A stretch of DNA of 64,000 nt, taken from NCBI GenBank assembly GCA_951406725.2, contig OX597814.1, positions 158,472,001-158,536,000 on the forward strand, written 5' to 3'. The notes under the pieces are model-generated. The model did no database searches and was not told the origin of the DNA. It worked only from the letters and a program-made list of their open reading frames with translations. Of the stretch, positions 739 through 53,972 are shown one piece after another (the stretch's first letter is position 1; every line of letters begins with the position of its first letter). This stretch comes from Octopus vulgaris (lineage: Eukaryota). A program made the translations under genes and the position numbers.

Positions 739-1997
739 CAGGGGATGGATAAACTAATAGAAACACGTTAAAATTTCAAACAAATCTAATTTAATATGGG
801 ACACGACCGCCTTTGGCAATAATTACAGCTTGAATTCTACAAGCTATGGATTCATACAGAGTTTGAATTGATTCCAAAGGAATTCTTCAGCTAAAACCGT
901 CTCCAGTTCTTGTAGTGATGATGGTGGAGGATATTGACTCCTTACTTGTTTTTCTAAATGCACCGTAAAGGTTCAATAATTTCGATATCTGGGGACTGTG
1001 GTAGCCAGATAAGATGTTCAACGTCACTAGAATGTTCCTCGTGCCATTCAGTAACATCTTTAGCTCTGTAATTGGTGCATTATCATCCTGAAAGATTGCG
1101 TTTTCTTCCGGAAACAGTTCCGCAACTATAGGATGAATTTGATCAGAGAAAATGTTTTAATAGTATTGACTATTAATTCTGCAATGAAGGAAAACCATTG
1201 GGCTAGCGGATTTCCATGATATAGCTCCCCCATCCGCCAGATCATCACCAATCCTCATCCCTGTTTAACAGTTTGAAGAAGGTAGTCTGGGTCAAATGCT
1301 TCTTTTAGCTGTCTCCACACGTAAGTCGGCCGGTGGTCATAAATAAGCTAAAGAATGACTCGTCCGAAAAAATAACATTCTTCCACTTGCTCTAGGAATC
1401 AATTCTGCAGGTTTTACTCCACTCTAAATACTTTGCAACGTCTGTTTTTGAAAGTAGTGGTTTTCTGATAGCAGCCCTCCGTGAAATCCGGCTTTGTGCA
1501 GCTCCCGGCGAACAGTCTTTGTTGAAACTGGGTTCTCAAGGTGGCCATTAAGCACTGCAGTAATTTTGGGAGCTGTACTTTTTGGTGCTTTCTAACAATT
1601 CGCGTAAGAGTCCTATGGTCCCTATCTGAAAGTTGTCTTCCGGAGTTCTGTTTCGACGAGGAGGGTTTTCTGTCTTTCTCAAAGGCTGTCATTACTTTCG
1701 AATCAGTACTTCTTGATATACCAAACATTTCGGCTGTTTTCGTTACACTGGCGCCTGCCATATGAGCACCAACAATTTGACCTCTTTGAAAGTCTGATAG
1801 ATCTGTCATTTTCATGAATTTTAATTGCATTTTTCTAATGATATCTGAACAAAAAACAGCAAACATATTAAGCAACACTAAAAATGAATAAAAGAAACAT
1901 AAAATAAGCAAAATACAAACTTTTGACGGGTTTTATAGATATTTCAAAGTTATGATGCCATGATGCTAGGTGTTTCCATTATTGTGTCTAACCCTTG
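739..1997 (-). mobile_element. Tc1-like DNA transposon, full length, inactivated
   Basis: TIRs: CAGGGGATGGATAAACTAATAGAAACAC at 739 (after TA) versus GTGTTTCCATTATTGTGTCTAACCCTTG ending 1997. Minus strand gives MTDLSDFQRGQIVGAHMAGASVTKTAEMFGISRST (HTH), NVIFSDE, IFQDDNAP and WLPQSPDIEIIE (DD34E), frameshifted. Confidence 0.92.
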
Positions 1998-12829: not shown

Positions 12830-13290
12830 GTAAATAATAATAACGGTATTTATATAAGCTTAAAGCAATCACAGTGCAAAGACTAAGGAAGATAGTCTAA
12901 TAATGGGGCATATAATCCCCTCGAAAGACAGATGTAGGCTTTCTCATCCGCATGGGACTCGAGCCCACATCCATTTAACGCGAACCCACATCCCTTTAAC
13001 GCTACTGTGTGTTACCATTACACTAGCGAATTAGCCTCCCTGTCACCGTCAAATTTAAGAACTATATTAGTTCGTAGTTGTTTTTTGTAAACAAACTACT
13101 ATGTGCTGGTGTAATGGTAACGCACTTAGTCGTTAACAAGGGGATGTGGGTTCGAATCCTACGCGGATGGGAAAACCTACTTTTTTCTGTCGAGGGCTTA
13201 TATGCCCTATTATTCCACCATTTTCCTCAGCCTTTGCATGGTGATCTCTATAAGCTTTAAGCTTATATCAATACCATTGTTATTATTTAC
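12830..13290. repeat. Fold-back element whose ~190-bp arms each contain an outward-facing tRNA-like head
   Basis: 12830-13026 is the inverted copy of 13105-13290; right arm GCTGGTGTAATGGTAACG (A box)...GGTTCGAATCC (B box). Confidence 0.8.
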
Positions 13291-15971: not shown

Positions 15972-17260
15972 CGAGGGGCGTTCAATAAGTAATGCCTCTG
16001 ACCCACTTGCATTATTTGATCTAGCATGAAATTTTGCATGTGCAATTATCGATATCTCTATAGATTAAGTGGTAAATTACAGCTCTGAACTAATTGTGGT
16101 TTCTGATTTACAGGTGTTTCAACTGAGTCAAGTGTGAAATGGAGCCTGTTGAGTGTCGGGCAGTGATCCGCTTTTTATATTTGAAAGGACGCACACCACG
16201 GGAGACTTTTGATGAAATGAAAGTAACTTATGGTGATGATGCCCCATCATATGACCTTGTAAAACGCTGGCATTGTGAATTCAAACATGGTCGGAACTCT
16301 GTGGAAACAGCTCCCAGATCTGGTCGCCCCCCTACTGCTATTGATGAGGCATCTGTCCATCAAGTTGCCATTTTGGAAGATCGACGCATAACTATTCGCC
16401 AAATAGCCCATGAGGTCAAGATTAGTACCGGGTCTGTGGAAACCAATCATTCATGACAATTTGCATATGCAAAAGGTGTCTGCCAGATGGATTCCCAGGT
16501 TGCTCACACCTTTCCGGAAGCAAGAACGCGTCGAGTGCTCGAGGATGAATTTGGAGATGTGCCAAGAAGATGAGTCAACATTTTTCAAAAGACTGATTAC
16601 ACAGAATGAAACCTGGGTCCATCACTATGATCCAGAGACAAAAGCCCAGTCAATGCAGTGGAAGCACCGTGACTCACCTCCTCCAAAGAAGAAGGCAAGG
16701 GTGCAGCCCTCCACTAGCAAGATCATGCTCATAGTCTTCTGGGACCAGGACGGAGTAGTGATGACAGATTTCCTGGCAAAGGGCACCACAATTACAGGAG
16801 CCTATTATGCTTCACTTTTGATGAAATTAAGAGAAGCTATCAAAATCAAGAGGCGGGGCAAGATCAGCAAAGGCATCCTCCTCCTGCAGAACAACGCTCC
16901 GGTCCACAACTCGATGGTCGCCAGATCAGAAGCACAGGCGTGCGGCTATGAACTCCTTCACCATGCCCCTACTCTCTTGACCTTGCACCCTCGGACTTTC
17001 ACCTCTTCCCAGCCATGAAGTTGTTTTTGAAAGGAAAGAGTTTCCCAGATGATGCAGCCTTGATTTCTGAAGTCACGTCGTGGTTGGAGGACCAAGCTGG
17101 GGTCTTCTACAAAAACGGTCTCCAGAGCTGCATCAAACAATGGAAGAAATGCGTAACTCTGGGTGGTTTCTATGTAGAAAAAGACTAATAACTGTGCCAA
17201 GTTTCGTTGCTCTACTGGTATGGGAAGTGGTCAGGGGCATTACTTATTGAACGCCCCTCG
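15972..17260 (+). mobile_element. Full-length mariner element (1289 bp, irritans-like), TA target-site duplication, frameshifted transposase
   Basis: TIRs CGAGGGGCGTTCAATAAGTAATGCC and GGCATTACTTATTGAACGCCCCTCG, both flanked by TA; transposase 16139-17188 with WIPRLL, ITQNETWVHHY, LQNNAPVH and DLAPSDFHLF, split by frameshifts. Confidence 0.97.
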
Positions 17261-39476: not shown

Positions 39477-39525
<49 letters not shown>

Positions 39526-39529
<4 letters not shown>

Positions 39530-40298
39530 ATTAATTTATAAAATTTATAAAAATATGGTAAAGTAAAAGAATTCACTTTACCACACACCGAACTTTTCCG
39601 AAATAGCAGCCAAAAATTTGGCTATTTCTTCAACTGCAAATAAAAGTCTCCAGACAATGTATACTCAGAAAAATAACTCACATAGGAATAAGGGAAAAAC
39701 AATGAAAGATCACATCCATATACGATACCCGAGGACAGTCTGTTTCTGGATTTGTGGGTAAAACGCCACTTTTCCTTCATCAGCTCAGAGATTTCTTTTG
39801 ATTTAGATTTGAAAATACTAAGAATCAAACATACCCGTCCGATATCTGTAACATCGGACAAACTATGCCAGACATCCAGTACTAGCGAATCCAAAAATAC
39901 GAATGAGATCTATTATTCTCCCTGTCCGCCCACGTGAGTCATAGAGCATTCCATTTCTACAGAGGTAAAAACTGCAGTTTAAATTCTTGGAGAGAAAGCA
40001 TTATATTGTTATGAGAAAATGGGGGTCGAATCAATTAATTATTAATAAATTCGACCAAGCAGTATTCGGTATGTAAAGACCATTTACGGTATATTTGAAG
40101 TATTAATTTATAAAAATATGGTAAAGTAAAAGAATTCACTTTACCACACACCGAACTTTTCCGAAATAGCAGCCAAAAACTTGGCTATTTCTTCAACTGC
40201 AAATAAAAGTCTCCAGACAATGTATACTCAGAAAAATAAATTAATACTTCAAATATACCGTAAATGGTCTTTACATACCGAATACTGCTTGGTCGAAT
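39526..40298 (-). mobile_element. Non-coding, terminally redundant hammerhead-containing element within (TA)n
   Basis: Near-identical ~140-bp direct repeats at 39526-39676 and 40098-40239 (period 563); 40237-40298 is the inverted copy of 40049-40110; hammerhead at 39728-39789. Confidence 0.85.
39728..39789 (-). ncRNA. Minimal hammerhead ribozyme (intact core)
   Basis: Minus strand tctgag-CTGATGA-a gga aaa gtgg cgttttac ccac aaa tcc a-GAAA-CAG A CTG-TC-ctcggg; all three stems pair, GUC site. Confidence 0.85.
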
Positions 40299-40319
40299 CT
40301 ATATATATATATATATATA

Positions 40320-40618
40320 TTGAAATTATAAGTTAGGGAATCTACGAGATACCACCATGCTGAAAATAGCAGCCATGATCTGACTCTAAAACCACCTTAA
40401 TTGTCCATATATCAACACGGAGAGAAAACAAACAGACAAGATGAAACTAGTAAAAAATTACTAGTAAAAAATTTCCAGTAATGTTTTACTAGTTTCATCT
40501 TGTCTCTTTCTTTTCTCTCCGTGTTGATATATGGACAATTAAGGTGGTTTTAGAGTCAGATCATGGCTGCTATTTTCAGCATGGTAGTATCTCGTAGATA
40601 CCCTAATTTATAATTTTA
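40320..40618. repeat. Fold-back element, ~140-bp near-perfect arms
   Basis: catgctgaaaatagcagccatgatctgactctaaaaccaccttaattgtccatatatcaacacggagagaaaa is mirrored exactly in 40511-40583. Confidence 0.95.
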
Positions 40619-40723
40619 ATAATTATTACCTTTGAAGGTTATTTTTTCCATGCTGACCACTTGATAAAATCGTTAGTTTATTTTTAAATTAACGATCTTA
40701 TCCTTATTTATATAAATTTATAA

Positions 40724-40790
<67 letters not shown>

Positions 40791-40794
<4 letters not shown>

Positions 40795-41626
40795 GGAAAG
40801 AGGGTTTGAAAAAGCAAAGGTCTTTTAACGATGTTTATTGACTTGACCGGTTTCACTTTTTTAAAAACAGATTATCAAAAGTAAAATGTAAAGTTTTGCA
40901 TAAGCTTGTTGTGTTAAAAAATGGTTATCATAATTGTATTAAAATTGTATTTATACAGAATTTTAGGGAAATGACCAACCTTTCCATCAATCATCTCCTG
41001 TCTTGTAGTGTGTGTATGAGAAATGCTTATTTCTAAAAATAGTGTGGGAGGTTGGATGGTGGGGGAGATCATTGTGGAATCAAAAGGAATTTTTCTGGGT
41101 TAGTCTGTCCATGGCAGACTAGCCCAGAAATAAAAAGATCCCTTTGATTCCACAATGCTCTCTCTCACCAATCAACTTCCCACACTATTTCTAAAAATAG
41201 CAAGCATTTCTCATACACACTACAAAACAGGAGATGATGGATGGAAAGGTTGGTCATTCCCCTAAAATTCTGTATAAATACTTAAATATATTTCCTTCTG
41301 TATATATGTTTCTTATACAACCATGATTTTTGATTAACTTAAAATAATTATAAATTTATTTTACAGCCTATTTTGAACACTTTCATGTAAACTATTTAAA
41401 CAAAAAGCCCCTCTTAACATTTTCTTATCATTCATTGTCAAAGATTCTATTTTTTAACATCTTATCAAAGACTATAACTGTATTTTAATACAATTATGAT
41501 AACCATTTTTTAATACAACAAAGCATATAGAAAGTTTTGAATTTTACTTTTAAAAAGAAAGTGTAACCGGTCAACTCAATAAACATCTTTAAAAGACCTC
41601 TACATTTTCAAACCTTCTTTCTTATA
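40791..41626. repeat. Large fold-back (~320-bp arms, centre CCATGG ~41109-41114, ~200-bp extra segment in the right arm) with decayed hammerhead-like motif at 40841-40882
   Basis: 40947-41110 pairs with 41113-41281 and 40791-40945 pairs with 41482-41626; minus strand actt-TTGATAA...GAAA-CCGG-TC-aagt. Confidence 0.9.
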
Positions 41627-42049
41627 TATTTTCACTCGTGCGGTACCTTGCAAATTTAGTTTGTTTTATATATATATTATACATACATACATATGTACGC
41701 AGGCATGTATGTGTATGCATATGGATGTATATGCATGCAATGCACTATCTAACATATCTATGTCTTATAGCCAACACTATGCTTTACGACAGTTGTAAAT
41801 AATTTCTCGGTGAAATATGCCCGCAGACTGAAAAGGAGGGAGCTGTCATACGTGTTTCGATTTTTGGTGAATTAGTCATCAGGAACTGTGTTCCCCAACA
41901 AACATATTGAACAGATGAATTCTTTACAATTGTTGTAATATATATATGTAAGTTCTATTGTACATCATAACAAGGAAACCAAAAATGCTAGAACATCAAT
42001 AATTTACTATGCATGCACATGTGTGTGTCTGTTTATCTGTTTCTGTGTT

Positions 42050-49765: not shown

Positions 49766-50869
49766 TGAGAGAGCAGTGCATGACATCAAAGTGACACTAG
49801 GGTAAAATATATGAAGCCCAGTATACCCACTAAGACTACCCGTCTGATAAGGGTACACTAGACACATGTCATCACAACCATATGTGCACGAGACGGTGAT
49901 CTCTTATCAAGATAAACAACACATGACCTTGCAGGTGGGGTCCAGTTAGAATTTTCTTCTGGTCGAGTAACCCATCCTGCTCAAAAGGTCCCTGAATAAG
50001 GGTTGTTTAAGGATGTTGAACGAAACTCCCATGTTTCTAAAGGTGAATTATTAAAACCCCAAAAAATCCCTCTCATCACATGGCTATGATGCTCCCCCAC
50101 TACTTCTTTTCGTGATCAGAGATGCACGAGTATTCTAGCGGTTCCAAGCAGTGCTGTTTTCTGCAAGTGCTCCACCCTTATTGCAGCCCCTATTTGCTCC
50201 ACGTACTTCTCGAGATTTTTGCTCACTGTTCCCAGGGCTCCGACAATTATTGGTACTACTGCTACCTTTTTCATCGACCACGACTCCTTAACTTCCCAAG
50301 CTAACCTGTCATATCTCTCGACTTTTCTTTCTTCCTTATCGCATACCTTGTTGTCAGCTGGGCATGCTATGTCTATAATCCAGCATAGATGATTTTCTTT
50401 CTCAATTAAGACTATGTCTGGCTTCCTATTCTCAATAACATGGTCGCATTCAAACATAAAATCCCAAAGGATCTTTGTATTTCTGTTTTCGACGATGATT
50501 TCAGGTTTGTGATAGTACCAATTTTTTGCTCTGTGAAGTCCATACTTGTTGCAAAGTGTCCAATGGATAAGCCTGGCTATATTGTCCTGGCGTCTCTTAT
50601 ATTTCCTCTGGGTTAGTGGTGTACATTGGCTGGTAATATGCCATACGGTTTCACCGTTTTGTCCACAGATTTTGCACTTATCACTTTCTGCTGTGTTGTC
50701 TATTCTATATTTTATGTAGTTTGTTCTTAGTGCTTGCTCTTTTGCAGCACAGACTAGAGCCTCCGTTTTCGGTCTCAAATCACTTTTAGTCATCCACAGC
50801 CATCTTTTTCTGTCTGTCTTATCTTCAACATCCCTATTAAATTGACCATGCATTCTTTTCTTTACCCAC

Positions 50870-50870
<1 letters not shown>
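49763..50870 (-). mobile_element. R4/Dong LINE 3' portion (family B) in (TAA)n
   Basis: ORF 50116-50853: CKICGQNGETVWHITSQC (CCHC), RKPDIVLI...IIDIACP...K..Y (REL), PIIVGALG; flanked by (ATT)n. Confidence 0.93.
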
Positions 50871-50935
<65 letters not shown>

Positions 50936-51172
50936 CATCATCATCATCATCATCACATCATTATTATTATTATTATTAGGAATTCTCTTTATTTATTTAT
51001 TATTTATTTCCCCACTTTCTAATATATATCTGCTGTTATATCCTTTAATGTGGTAGTATCTATCCTTCATTGATGTTAACTCAACATATTTTTCTTTTTG
51101 TAATTTTTTCTGTGCTGTAACTCGTCCTTCGATATTGTCTTGGGCCCTTGTGGCCAATAAAAGAAATCATTA

Positions 51173-51212
<40 letters not shown>

Positions 51213-51216
<4 letters not shown>

Positions 51217-53972
51217 TAGTTTTATTTTTATAGCGTGCTTTCACTTCACTACCGAGCGCAGCTCTGTGTGCCTTGGGTATGTGCTGTGATTTGTTGTGAT
51301 GCTCTGATGGTTATTGTATGGAAAGTGTTCTGCGTAGGATGTATGCAGTGCCTAGTAGTGCAATTTTCTGTATGTTATATGTGTTTGTAAGTCCTGGTGT
51401 TTTGTTATGTATTTGTCTGAATATTTTTTTATCATGCCTAATGCACCTACTATGATAGAGATTGTTTCTCTTTTTAGATTCCACATTCTGGTTACCTCTA
51501 TTTCCAGGTCTTTGTACTTTGAAAGTTTCTCCATTTCTTTTAGAGACACGTTGTCATCTGCCGGTATTGATACATCAATTAGAAAGCATTTTTTTTCTTC
51601 ATGATCTCTGACAACTATATCTGGTCTGTTGGCCTTAATTTCTCTATCAGTGTGTATCGGCATATCCCAGAGTATGGTTGCTTTCTCGTTTTCTGTGACC
51701 TTTTCTGGTGTGTGCCTATACCATCTTTTTTCTGTTGTTATTCCATAATGTTGGCATAGCTTCCAGTGTATGTAGGTTCCAACTCTGTCATGTCTGTGAA
51801 TATATTCCTTCTTAGCCAGGACTGGGCAGCCAGAGTTAATATGATTTATTGTTTCTTGTCCATCTCCACATATTCTGCAGTTACTTGTTATATTTCTTTT
51901 CATTACATATTTTTGCTAATTTCTGGTGGGGAGGCTTTGGTCTTGTGCTGCAATTAAAAATTCCTATGTCTCTGCTTTGAGTCCTGAGCTTCTCAACCAT
52001 TGCTGGGATTTTTCTTCGTCTATTTCTTTTGCATTTAGTTTAGTCCAATATTTACCATGAAGGGGCTTTTCTTGCCATCGTTTTATCATGGTTCGTTGCT
52101 GTTCTAGTTTTAGTTTGGATTTCATTTGTTTAATAGCTTTTGTTGTTTCTTCATCTACTTCTTCTTCATATTTGTTAGGTGGTATGATTTCTTGTTTGTA
52201 TTTGTCAGCTTTCTTAAATACTGAGAACAGTTTTTTGTTTTGCTCGTGTTTTGCCGCTATTTGTATCAGTTTTCCTTCCTTCTGAAGTAGATATTTTTGC
52301 AGTCCTATGGTGGTTATTTTATAGTAGTTTTCCAGCTGTATAAGGCCTCTACCACCTTCTATACGTTGTATATATAGTCTTTCTATATCAGGTTTTGCGT
52401 GATGCATCCTAGATCCTGTCATTATTTTTCTTGTTTTCCTATCTATTTTGGTCAGTTCATTTAGTGACCAGTTAAGGATATTGTAGCTGTAACTTATAAC
52501 TGGGACAGCTAAAGTGTTAATACCTATTATCTTGTTTTTAGCACTGAGCTCTGTTTTTAGTATTCATCTAACTCGTCTATAATTTTCTTTTTTTATTTTG
52601 TCTTTCATTTGTATGTGTTGTGTCTTATCTAGTTCATGGATTCCTAAGTATTTGTAAGTTTGGCTTTGGTCTAATTCTTTTATTTCATTGGTTTTATCTA
52701 GTGTGATGTTGCCACTCTTAACTAGTTTTCCTCTTTTCAGGGTTACTTTGGCGCATTTTTCTAATCCAAATTTCATATCTATTTCTTTGGTAAATCCATG
52801 AACTGTCTTTAATAGTGTTTCCAGCTGTTTGTCATTTGCAGCATATAGTTTTAGGTCATCCATATATAAAAGGTGGCTGATCGTTTTGCCGTAACATTTA
52901 TATCCGCATCCAGTTCTATTTAGCATATCAGATAGAGGTGACAGTACCAAGCAGAAAATGAGTGGAGAGAGCGTGTCTCCCTGGAATATTCCTCTTCTAA
53001 TGGGGATGGCTTTGGTTTTCATGAGTCCCTCTTTTGTTTGGAGGTGTAGGACTGTTTGCCATTTATTCATAGTGTCCTATGAATTTTATAATTGTTGGTG
53101 CTACTTTGTTAATGGCTAGCGTTTCGAGGATCCATGTGTGGGGAATGCTATCAAACGCCTTTTTGTAGTCGATCCAGGCCATACTGAGGCCTTTCTTCTT
53201 TCTGTGGCTGTCTTCAGTTATGGCTTTATTGATCATTAGTTGATCTTTACAGCCATATGAGCCTTTGCGGCATCCTTTCTGCTCTTCTGGAAACAGGTTG
53301 TTTTTGTCCAGGTGCTTGTTCAACCTTTGCGATATCACTGCAGTAAATGCCTTGTACATTGTAGGGAGACAGGTTATTGGTCTGTAGTTTTCTGGTTTTG
53401 CTGTCTCATTTGATTTGGGAATTAAGATGGTTTTCCCCTTCGTGAGCCATTCTGGCATTGCCTCTGGCTCTGCTAGTATGTTGTAAAGTTTTCAGCCAGC
53501 TTTTTGTGCATTCCTGTTAGATATTTCAACCAGAAGTTGGGGATCTTGTCATGCCCAGGTGCCTTCCAGTTGCTTAGTTTTTGCAGTGCCTGGGTGACCT
53601 GTTCAGTTGTTTTGGGGGTTCAAAGTTGCTCAGATGCTGAGTTTGTTGTTTTAATACTCCTTTTTTTTTTGTTGTTCGTTCGCCGACCATATTTCTCTCC
53701 AGAATTCTTCCACTTCTTCTGCCGTTGGTGCTGCAGTGATTTCTATTTTATTTTTGCCCAGTTCTTGGTAGAACTTTTTGGGGTTGGAGTTGAACTTTTT
53801 GTTTTGTTCAAAGAAGCGCTGGCGTTTCTCGTACCGGCGGATCCTTTGTGCTTTGGCAAGGATATCTTGCTTTAGCTTTTCTTTTATCTCAGGTAAGTCT
53901 TTTTCTGTGATGTTGTATTTGCGGAGTATTTTTGTTTTTTTTTTGTTGCTCAGTAGCGTTGATTGTCTACTG
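51213..53972 (-). mobile_element. R4/Dong LINE (family A), 5'-truncated, with RT, CCHC and REL domains; frameshifted
   Basis: YRPITCL, AWIDYKKAFDSIPH, GIFQGDTLSP, LLYMDDLKLYA, YKYLG, CRICGDGQETINHINSGC, NRPDIVV...IDVSIP; both ends in (ATT)n. Confidence 0.97.

What the first reader, a model, noticed from the sequence alone, without database searches (positions are those of the whole stretch)
39526..40298. 1.25-unit, circularly permuted element: 563-bp monomer, internal hammerhead, terminal redundancy and inverted tail
Seen: (TA)n, then ~140-bp repeat, unique part with an intact minus-strand hammerhead, near-identical repeat, 62-bp inverted copy of internal sequence, then (TA)n; no ORF with recognisable homology. 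The ribozyme lies inside the unit rather than at its boundary. Inference: this is what reverse transcription of a circular or tandem ~563-nt RNA past one full round would leave, followed by a template switch giving the inverted end known from Penelope insertions. The near-identical repeats suggest a young insertion.
Basis: partly seen in the sequence, partly recalled or inferred. Interest (0 to 1): 0.75.

Follow-up and report, generated by a model that had tools for sequence, protein, structure and literature searches.

The report
Penelope-pasted hammerhead retrozyme, two-armed copy
This is one young copy of an abundant non-coding jumping repeat whose 563-base unit carries a self-cutting RNA motif; the kind is known, and the ends and shared mutations of its copies suggest that a Penelope-type transposon enzyme likely copies a small, probably circular, RNA from both sides of a DNA cut.

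Summary
In detail: 1.25 units of a 563-bp monomer, a minus-strand type I hammerhead and a 63-bp inverted arm, between (TA)n runs.

It is one copy of a dispersed young family (1,816 first-look candidates; 65 loci analysed, 1-5 units long, no ORF): an animal non-LTR retrozyme.

Copies are not freely permuted. 82 of 93 mapped (TA)n-flanked starts lie in one 140-nt AT-rich zone, while 5' ends scatter and ignore the cut site. The inverted tail starts at a site used by 9 arms, so it is likely a second primed cDNA, not a template switch.

Units within an insertion differ by 0.5% (2.5% between loci), and 18 private variants recur in every pass. This favours repeated copying of one monomer, probably a circle.

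Three sister families share the layout and a fold around the start. Three young Neptune-type Penelope families leave the same footprint, but none is homologous, so the helper is unidentified. Cleavage and circles are untested.

The circle model was already proposed in print, and this scan found the same pattern before on other DNA. Verdict: new member of a known kind.

The parts
39482..39525 (.). (TA)n target, left half; inferred primer for the main arm
   Evidence: sequence; 94 of 103 arms start at a TA run
39526..39541 (-). Start of the main arm at the major initiation site, with a 9-nt stutter duplication (39533-39541 repeats 39542-39550)
   Evidence: a similar repeated start in 5 of 65 loci
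39542..40104 (-). One full 563-nt monomer (sense = minus strand), non-coding, strongly self-paired when folded as a circle
   Evidence: period 563; z -7.8 sense, -3.5 antisense, 0.0 for flank; longest open frame 95 codons
39728..39791 (-). Type I hammerhead motif, predicted dimer-dependent; predicted cut between 39734 and 39733
   Evidence: CUGAUGA and GAAA invariant in 111-118 passes (that sample is partly selected for identity here)
40066..40174 (-). Conserved domain around the start site: an 11-nt motif, an 8-bp closing helix (40147-40154 with 40066-40073), a hairpin and an A/U linker holding the main start. It is intact only across the unit junction.
40105..40239 (-). Second, 5'-truncated pass (135 nt, one substitution); stops about 50 nt short of a second hammerhead
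40236..40298 (+). Inverted second arm starting at monomer position 504-507; 4-nt microhomology with the main arm
40300..40319 (.). (TA)n target, right half; inferred primer for the inverted arm

Best explanation
This is a young, likely dead-end genomic copy of a non-autonomous animal retrozyme family, likely pasted into a (TA)n run by a Penelope-like (Neptune-type) reverse transcriptase-endonuclease acting on a probably circular 563-nt RNA. Shown: the family, its tandem 1-5-unit copies, the (TA)n target, clustered starts, scattered 5' ends, two-armed insertions and near-identical units within an insertion. Inferred steps: (1) a source locus with two or more hammerheads is transcribed; (2) the paired hammerheads cut out a monomer that is ligated into a circle; (3) the helper protein binds the conserved domain about 120 nt downstream of the cut site; (4) it nicks both strands of the palindromic (TA)n; (5) it primes at A/U-rich patches just downstream of that domain; (6) one strand is copied 1.25 times round, the other primes at a second site and is copied for 63 nt; (7) the two cDNAs are joined through a 4-nt microhomology. 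This copy has one hammerhead and so would not release a monomer itself.
For: Family: 1,816 candidates, 40 scored; the main matches are about 90-100% identical. 65 distinct loci gave 103 arms. Starts: 94 of 103 at a TA run, and 82 of 93 mapped starts in monomer 452-28 (p 8e-38), against 27 of 103 5' ends. Equally good TA patches elsewhere (119, 177, 301) are not used as starts. Two arms: 36 of 65 loci; the shorter arm starts in the zone in 25 of 36; 24 of 34 simple junctions overlap by 1-22 nt. Template continuity: 1 of 103 5' ends within 188-197, and 0 of 117 crossings of the cut site carry an indel within 5 nt. One template per insertion: successive passes differ at 100 of 18,558 sites, opposite arms at 116 of 12,596, different loci at 2.5%; 172 of 182 widely shared variants occur in all passes; 18 variants private to one locus (16 loci) occur in all passes, in 5 loci in both arms. 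The longest array among 40 scored of 1,582 candidates is 5.17 units and has an ordinary start. Selection on the sense RNA: z -7.8; 24 of 35 shared substitutions fall in unpaired positions against 35% expected (p 5e-5). Sister families of 601 and 493 nt and a third have their own hammerheads and start at homologous distances from the motif. Three young autonomous families with RT, GIY-YIG and the C-x2-5-CxxC linker are present; two of them (A, B) end in (TA)n at two sites about 40-46 nt apart, and their inverted arms start at the same ends. In vitro, a Penelope protein nicks and extends both strands and starts internally (PMC11167929).
Against: Neither cleavage nor a circle was observed. No sequence link to a helper: local alignment to family A scored 64 against 65 +/- 10 for shuffles, and the BLAST hits near families B and C lie at no constant position relative to the ORF. 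Hammerhead positions are not significantly depleted of shared variants in the less biased subset (3 of 70 against 32 of 493, p 0.60). Covariation of the start-site fold does not exceed its shuffle control (54-407 of 500 shuffles reach the observed values), and 2 of 7 single folds do not show the closing helix. Ten of 182 shared variants are not in all passes, and locus L098 has arms from different templates. 'Private' means private among 65 sampled loci; a homogeneous unsampled source array would give the same pattern. Eleven of 36 shorter arms start outside the zone. All samples are the best-scoring 40 per search and lean to young copies. Only 1 of 9 predicted Xenopus retrozyme dimers cleaved in vitro (10.64898/2026.07.22.740005), and hammerhead cleavage was dispensable for insertion in vitro (PMC11167929).
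Confidence: 0.7

Rival explanations
1. Same family and same Penelope machinery, but the template is an uncut linear read-through multimer from a few homogeneous source arrays; there is no circle and the hammerhead is a passenger.
For: No 5' ends pile up at the cut site and there are no scars there, which fits uncut RNA as well as a ligated circle. All helices of the circular fold can also form locally in a multimer (my reading). Cleavage is not needed in vitro (PMC11167929). Arrays of 3-5 units exist.
Against: Linear copying can only shorten arrays and would pass on new mutations in one unit position only. Instead, 172 of 182 shared variants and 18 private ones are in every pass, across subfamilies up to 7% apart. 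No long master array was seen in 40 of 1,582 candidates.
Confidence: 0.18
2. The template is a hammerhead-cut linear monomer, and the reverse transcriptase jumps from its 5' end back to a 3' end to make tandem copies.
For: It explains homogeneous units as well as a circle does. End-to-end jumping is known for R2 reverse transcriptase (recalled, not checked here).
Against: No excess of ends at the cut site (1 of 103) and no indel in 117 crossings. Jumps usually leave scars (recalled).
Confidence: 0.06
3. One reading: after 1.25 rounds the enzyme switched template or folded back, making the inverted 63 nt as part of one cDNA.
For: There is a 4-nt microhomology at the junction; 11 of 36 shorter arms have outer ends outside the start zone.
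Against: A switch predicts an arbitrary outer end. This tail's outer end is shared with 8 other arms, 25 of 36 shorter arms end in the start zone, and read from the outside both arms are the cDNA strand.
Confidence: 0.05
4. The copies are just truncated pseudo-LTR ends of an undiscovered autonomous Penelope element, not a self-standing monomer.
For: Published phylogeny links retrozymes to Penelope pseudo-LTRs (10.64898/2026.07.22.740005). Only three young autonomous families were examined.
Against: Copies run up to 5.17 times round a closed 563-nt unit with no exit into other sequence, and no ORF-linked copy was found among 65 + 7 loci.
Confidence: 0.03

Closest known systems
Animal non-LTR retrozymes (Cervera and de la Pena 2020, PMC7229834; Li, Clavereau and Pollet 2026, 10.64898/2026.07.22.740005)
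   Same: Non-coding tandem monomers with one type I hammerhead each, low GC, strongly self-paired predicted circle, weak palindromic helix III and an irregular base of helix II as in the axolotl motifs, co-occurring with Penelope-like elements.
   Different: The unit is 563 nt against 150-450 nt in the 2020 paper (within the 51-972 range of the 2026 preprint). Copies are mostly dispersed 1-2-unit insertions, about half two-armed, in (TA)n, with discrete start sites. The parts I read do not describe insertion ends. RNA circles and cleavage are shown there, not here.
EN+ Penelope-like elements, Neptune type, and their insertion anatomy (PMC8557442 passages; PMC4209133; PMC11167929)
   Same: Partial tandem, inverted 5'-truncated arm, microsatellite target, hammerhead upstream of an internal start, alternative 3' ends some tens of nucleotides apart, both target strands extended.
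   Different: No ORF and no detectable homology to the three autonomous families found here. There are four or five start clusters over 140 nt rather than two. The starts sit on short TA-like patches (perfect microhomology of 1-5 nt in 50 of 93), whereas the Poseidon protein started at a site not homologous to the cut DNA.
Non-autonomous Chlamys elements such as MRC1 (PMC8557442, passage)
   Same: Non-autonomous Penelope-like elements forming pseudo-LTRs and multicopy head-to-tail insertions.
   Different: Those resemble their autonomous partners at the 3' end, and most Chlamys lack canonical hammerheads; here there is a hammerhead and no partner homology.
L1 twin priming
   Same: An inverted arm primed from the opposite target strand and joined by microhomology.
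   Different: In L1 the two arms cover different parts of one linear RNA. Here the arms often overlap in template coordinates, up to a full unit each, which needs a circle, a multimer or two RNAs.

Membership tests
Animal non-LTR retrozyme | Tandem monomers of a few hundred bp, each with a type I hammerhead | tested here: met
   563-bp period; 22 of 65 loci carry two or more same-strand hammerheads; this locus has one
Animal non-LTR retrozyme | No protein coding | tested here: met
   longest stop-free frame 95 codons; LTR-type primer and polypurine sites were not searched for
Animal non-LTR retrozyme | Dispersed multi-copy mobile family | tested here: met
   1,816 candidates, matches on many contigs
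Animal non-LTR retrozyme | Strongly self-paired predicted circular RNA | tested here: met
   65% paired, z -7.8 on 20 shuffles; shared variants avoid paired sites
Animal non-LTR retrozyme | Self-cleavage at the hammerhead | not testable with these tools
   motif complete; activity needs an in vitro assay
Animal non-LTR retrozyme | Expression as linear and circular monomer RNA | tested here: inconclusive
   only contigs of runs guessed to be RNA were available; they cannot show strand, ends or circles
Penelope-type insertion product | Fixed internal 3' ends, variable 5' truncation, partial tandem | tested here: met
Penelope-type insertion product | Inverted 5'-truncated arm and microsatellite target | tested here: met
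   36 of 65 loci two-armed; 94 of 103 arms start at (TA)n
Penelope-type insertion product | Sequence kinship to the pseudo-LTR of an autonomous partner | tested here: not met
   no homology to families A, B, C; other families may exist
Autonomous Penelope-like element | RT plus GIY-YIG ORF | tested here: not met
   none attached in 72 loci
Satellite DNA spread by unequal crossing-over | Long arrays | tested here: not met
   longest 5.17 units among 40 scored of 1,582 candidates

The most novel reading that the evidence does not exclude
A superfamily of at least four 490-600-nt circular RNAs has evolved its own folded landing pad (an 11-nt motif plus a three-way junction) that captures a Penelope enzyme with no sequence kinship to it and fixes where copying starts on an endless template. 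Each insertion is a rolling-circle record of one RNA molecule copied from both sides of the break, which makes these loci direct genomic proof of the circular intermediate.
Probability: 0.3. Interest if true: 0.7.

Novelty: new member of a known kind. Interest (0 to 1): 0.42.

Why it matters
Whether retrozymes and Penelope-like elements are copied from hammerhead-made circles has been proposed since 2014 (PMC4209133), and the 2026 preprint still calls the mobilisation mechanism unresolved. This family supplies genomic evidence (units homogeneous within an insertion, unscarred cut sites, paired primed arms). It also supplies a compact test system: a 563-nt RNA, mapped start sites, a candidate binding domain and three currently amplifying candidate helper proteins in the same genome. 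The kind of element is known, and this scan has noted the same footprint in other families, so the gain is mechanistic detail rather than a new class.

Tried and rejected
Rfam scans gave no hammerhead hit. The minimum-energy fold of the 131-nt hammerhead region alone was unremarkable (z 0.38).

Free circular permutation was rejected. Priming set by TA microhomology alone was rejected: patches at monomer 119, 177 and 301 are unused. Excess hammerhead conservation looked strong, but that sample was partly selected for identity there; it was not significant in the 38 loci picked by the full-length query.

The helper search by homology failed for three families. A candidate autonomous copy of the neighbouring family (two hits 3.2 kb apart) had no RT-sized ORF between them.

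Expression: no RNA holder is listed on record. Contigs of seven runs guessed to be RNA cover most or all of the monomer at depth about 3-140 and none of the unique flank. In X1, X3, X10 and X9 they run into a (TA)n junction or stop at the same place, as read-through of genomic copies would. No verdict on circles. The likely DNA run X15 shows very high summed depth over the monomer; I did not use it as a copy number.

Literature searches for Penelope with twin priming (2 unrelated papers listed), octopus with Penelope and hammerhead and non-autonomous Penelope in microsatellites listed no paper on this family or on retrozyme insertion ends. The library lacks most subscription papers, and the preprint's supplements were not seen. 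A look-up of earlier scan notes by this sequence found nothing.

Rows dropped: alignments under 85% identity; 10 of 103 arms with no mappable start; 27 of the 30 loci as duplicates of places already held; 2 indel rows in the paired/unpaired count.

Full report
Observation. The window lies in a 2.8-Gb, 227-contig, AT-rich, microsatellite-rich eukaryotic genome. The taxon was not determined; 'cephalopod' is an impression and a label in earlier scan notes. The described anatomy is real: (TA)n; a main arm 39526-40239 of 1.25 units with a 563-bp period; an inverted arm 40236-40298; (TA)n. The minus strand holds a type I hammerhead at about 39728-39791 with a complete core and a predicted cut after 39734. 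Rfam misses it. A structural descriptor finds 3 in the window against 1 in 20 shuffles. Stem III is near-palindromic and favours a dimer, as described for metazoan hammerheads (PMC4209133, parts 1-2 of 4 read). The extra A before GAAA is invariant in the family and recurs in a sister family, so it is a family trait and not decay.

Family. A genome search gave 1,816 candidates, of which 40 were scored. Two mid-monomer queries and fetched stretches brought the set to 65 distinct loci with 103 arms of at least 85% identity. Below, monomer position 1 is window 39542, the RNA sense runs towards lower numbers, and the cut site is at 193/192. Arms run from 0.05 to 3.6 units. A later query with a 2.9-unit array found at most 5.17 units, again with an ordinary start in (TA)n. 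No copy leaves the 563-nt loop into an ORF.

Ends. 94 of 103 arms begin at a TA run. Of 93 mapped starts, 82 lie in positions 452-28, a quarter of the circle (p 8e-38), in clusters at 546-9, 507-510, 463-480 and 18-28. Only 27 of 103 opposite ends lie there. Equally TA-like patches at 119, 177 and 301 are unused, so position matters beyond microhomology. The far ends ignore the cut site: 1 of 103 within 188-197, and no indel in 117 crossings. So the copies are permuted only at their 5' ends. These samples are the best 40 of each search and lean to young copies; the full-length query also favours starts at or before position 1, but the mid-monomer queries and the second arms do not.

The inverted tail. 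36 of 65 loci have two opposed arms. The shorter arm's outer end lies in the start zone in 25 of 36, and 24 of 34 simple junctions overlap by 1-22 nt. This locus's tail begins at 504-507, as do 8 other arms. Read from outside, both arms are the cDNA strand. That is the pattern of priming from both nicked strands of a palindromic target (twin priming is recalled from L1). It matches the Poseidon protein, which cleaves and extends both strands and starts inside its template (PMC11167929, parts 1-2 of 4 read). A template switch predicts arbitrary outer ends and fits worse, though 11 of 36 fall outside the zone.

Template. Successive passes in one arm differ at 100 of 18,558 sites. Opposite arms differ at 116 of 12,596, of which 77 come from one chimeric locus (L098). 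Different loci differ at 2.5%. Of variants shared by four or more loci, 172 of 182 are in all passes. 18 variants seen in one locus only are in all passes, in five loci in both arms, while 101 private variants are in only some passes, as post-insertion changes would be. The single difference between this locus's repeats is such a change. Lineages therefore seem to pass repeatedly through one monomer that is copied several times. A ligated circle explains this and the unscarred cut site. Homogeneous unsampled source arrays or seamless jumping are not excluded. Only 22 of 65 loci, and 1 of 27 picked by mid-monomer queries, hold two same-strand hammerheads; this locus does not and is likely a dead end.

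RNA structure. The sense monomer folded as a circle gives z -7.8, the antisense -3.5 and the flank 0.0, on 12-20 shuffles each. 24 of 35 shared substitutions are at unpaired sites against 35% expected (p 5e-5), and 7 of the other 11 keep pairing; the fold was derived from this copy, which biases the test somewhat. Hammerhead positions are not significantly more conserved in the less biased subset (p 0.60).

Sister families. Diverged matches led to families of 601 nt and 493 nt and a third of undetermined period, each with about 1,800-2,100 candidates. Each has its own hammerhead with different stem I and III sequences. In the three units measured, a shared 11-nt motif lies 99-127 nt after the cut. 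Their insertions start about 45-70 and 135-170 nt past the motif; this family starts at 42, 66, 79, 126 and 167 (the distal counts are inflated by the queries). Eight variants share an 8-bp helix that encloses the main start (98% of cells paired, 7 sequences scored), but the covariation does not beat the shuffle control, and 2 of 7 single folds lack it. I take it as a candidate binding domain, not a shown one.

Helper. A GIY-YIG search and two protein searches revealed three young autonomous families with ORFs of 781, 775 and 776 aa, 47-57% identical to each other, with the C-x2-5-CxxC linker that PMC8557442 (passages read) associates with Neptune. All 76 scored copies of family B match at 100%. 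Families A and B end in (TA)n at two AT-rich sites about 40-46 nt apart, and their inverted arms use the same ends. None is homologous to the monomer, so the helper is inferred from footprint only.

Expression could not be judged.

Comparison. The element meets the testable criteria for an animal non-LTR retrozyme (PMC7229834, parts 2-4 of 6 read; 10.64898/2026.07.22.740005, parts 1-3 of 5 read, supplements not seen). Those papers and PMC4209133 already propose circles as templates for more-than-unit copying by Penelope enzymes. Three searches listed no paper on such insertion ends. Earlier scan notes describe the same two-armed footprint in other families, one in this genome; I looked them up after forming this reading (stated) and do not count them as support.

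Verdict: real, a new member of a known kind, with good genomic evidence on mechanism. Interest 0.42.

Noticed in passing
window 40321-40712: The adjacent 155-bp-arm palindrome is a two-armed insertion of a sister hammerhead family (493-nt unit, 2,073 candidates), truncated just before its hammerhead, sharing the 11-nt motif.
   Followed up: yes
window 40790-41680: Two-armed fragment about 70-79% like the pseudo-LTR end of autonomous family C, with a U3-A8-type hammerhead-like core near 40845-40880 on the minus strand.
   Followed up: partly
window 30389 (+) and 33346 (-): Two further type I hammerhead motifs of other families.
   Followed up: no
window 39526-39550; L044, L051, L081, L101: The first 9-17 nt at the main start are copied twice in 5 of 65 loci, like a restart at initiation; of interest given the kinship of Penelope RT with telomerase.
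   Followed up: partly
L134, L238, L227: Three young two-ORF Penelope-like families with many intact, near-identical copies; A and B carry variant hammerhead cores (U3-A8 type; CCGAAGA) in their pseudo-LTRs, read by eye.
   Followed up: partly
L098: The second arm is partly identical to the first arm and partly from a different subfamily, suggesting two RNA templates in one event.
   Followed up: no
window 50116-53491 (-), 16407-17018 (+), 1414-1932 (-): Decayed LINE-type RT frames and Tc1/mariner-type transposase fragments, judged by eye from translations.
   Followed up: no
window 13100-13170 (+): tRNA-like match above the Rfam gathering score (32 bits), possibly a SINE head.
   Followed up: no
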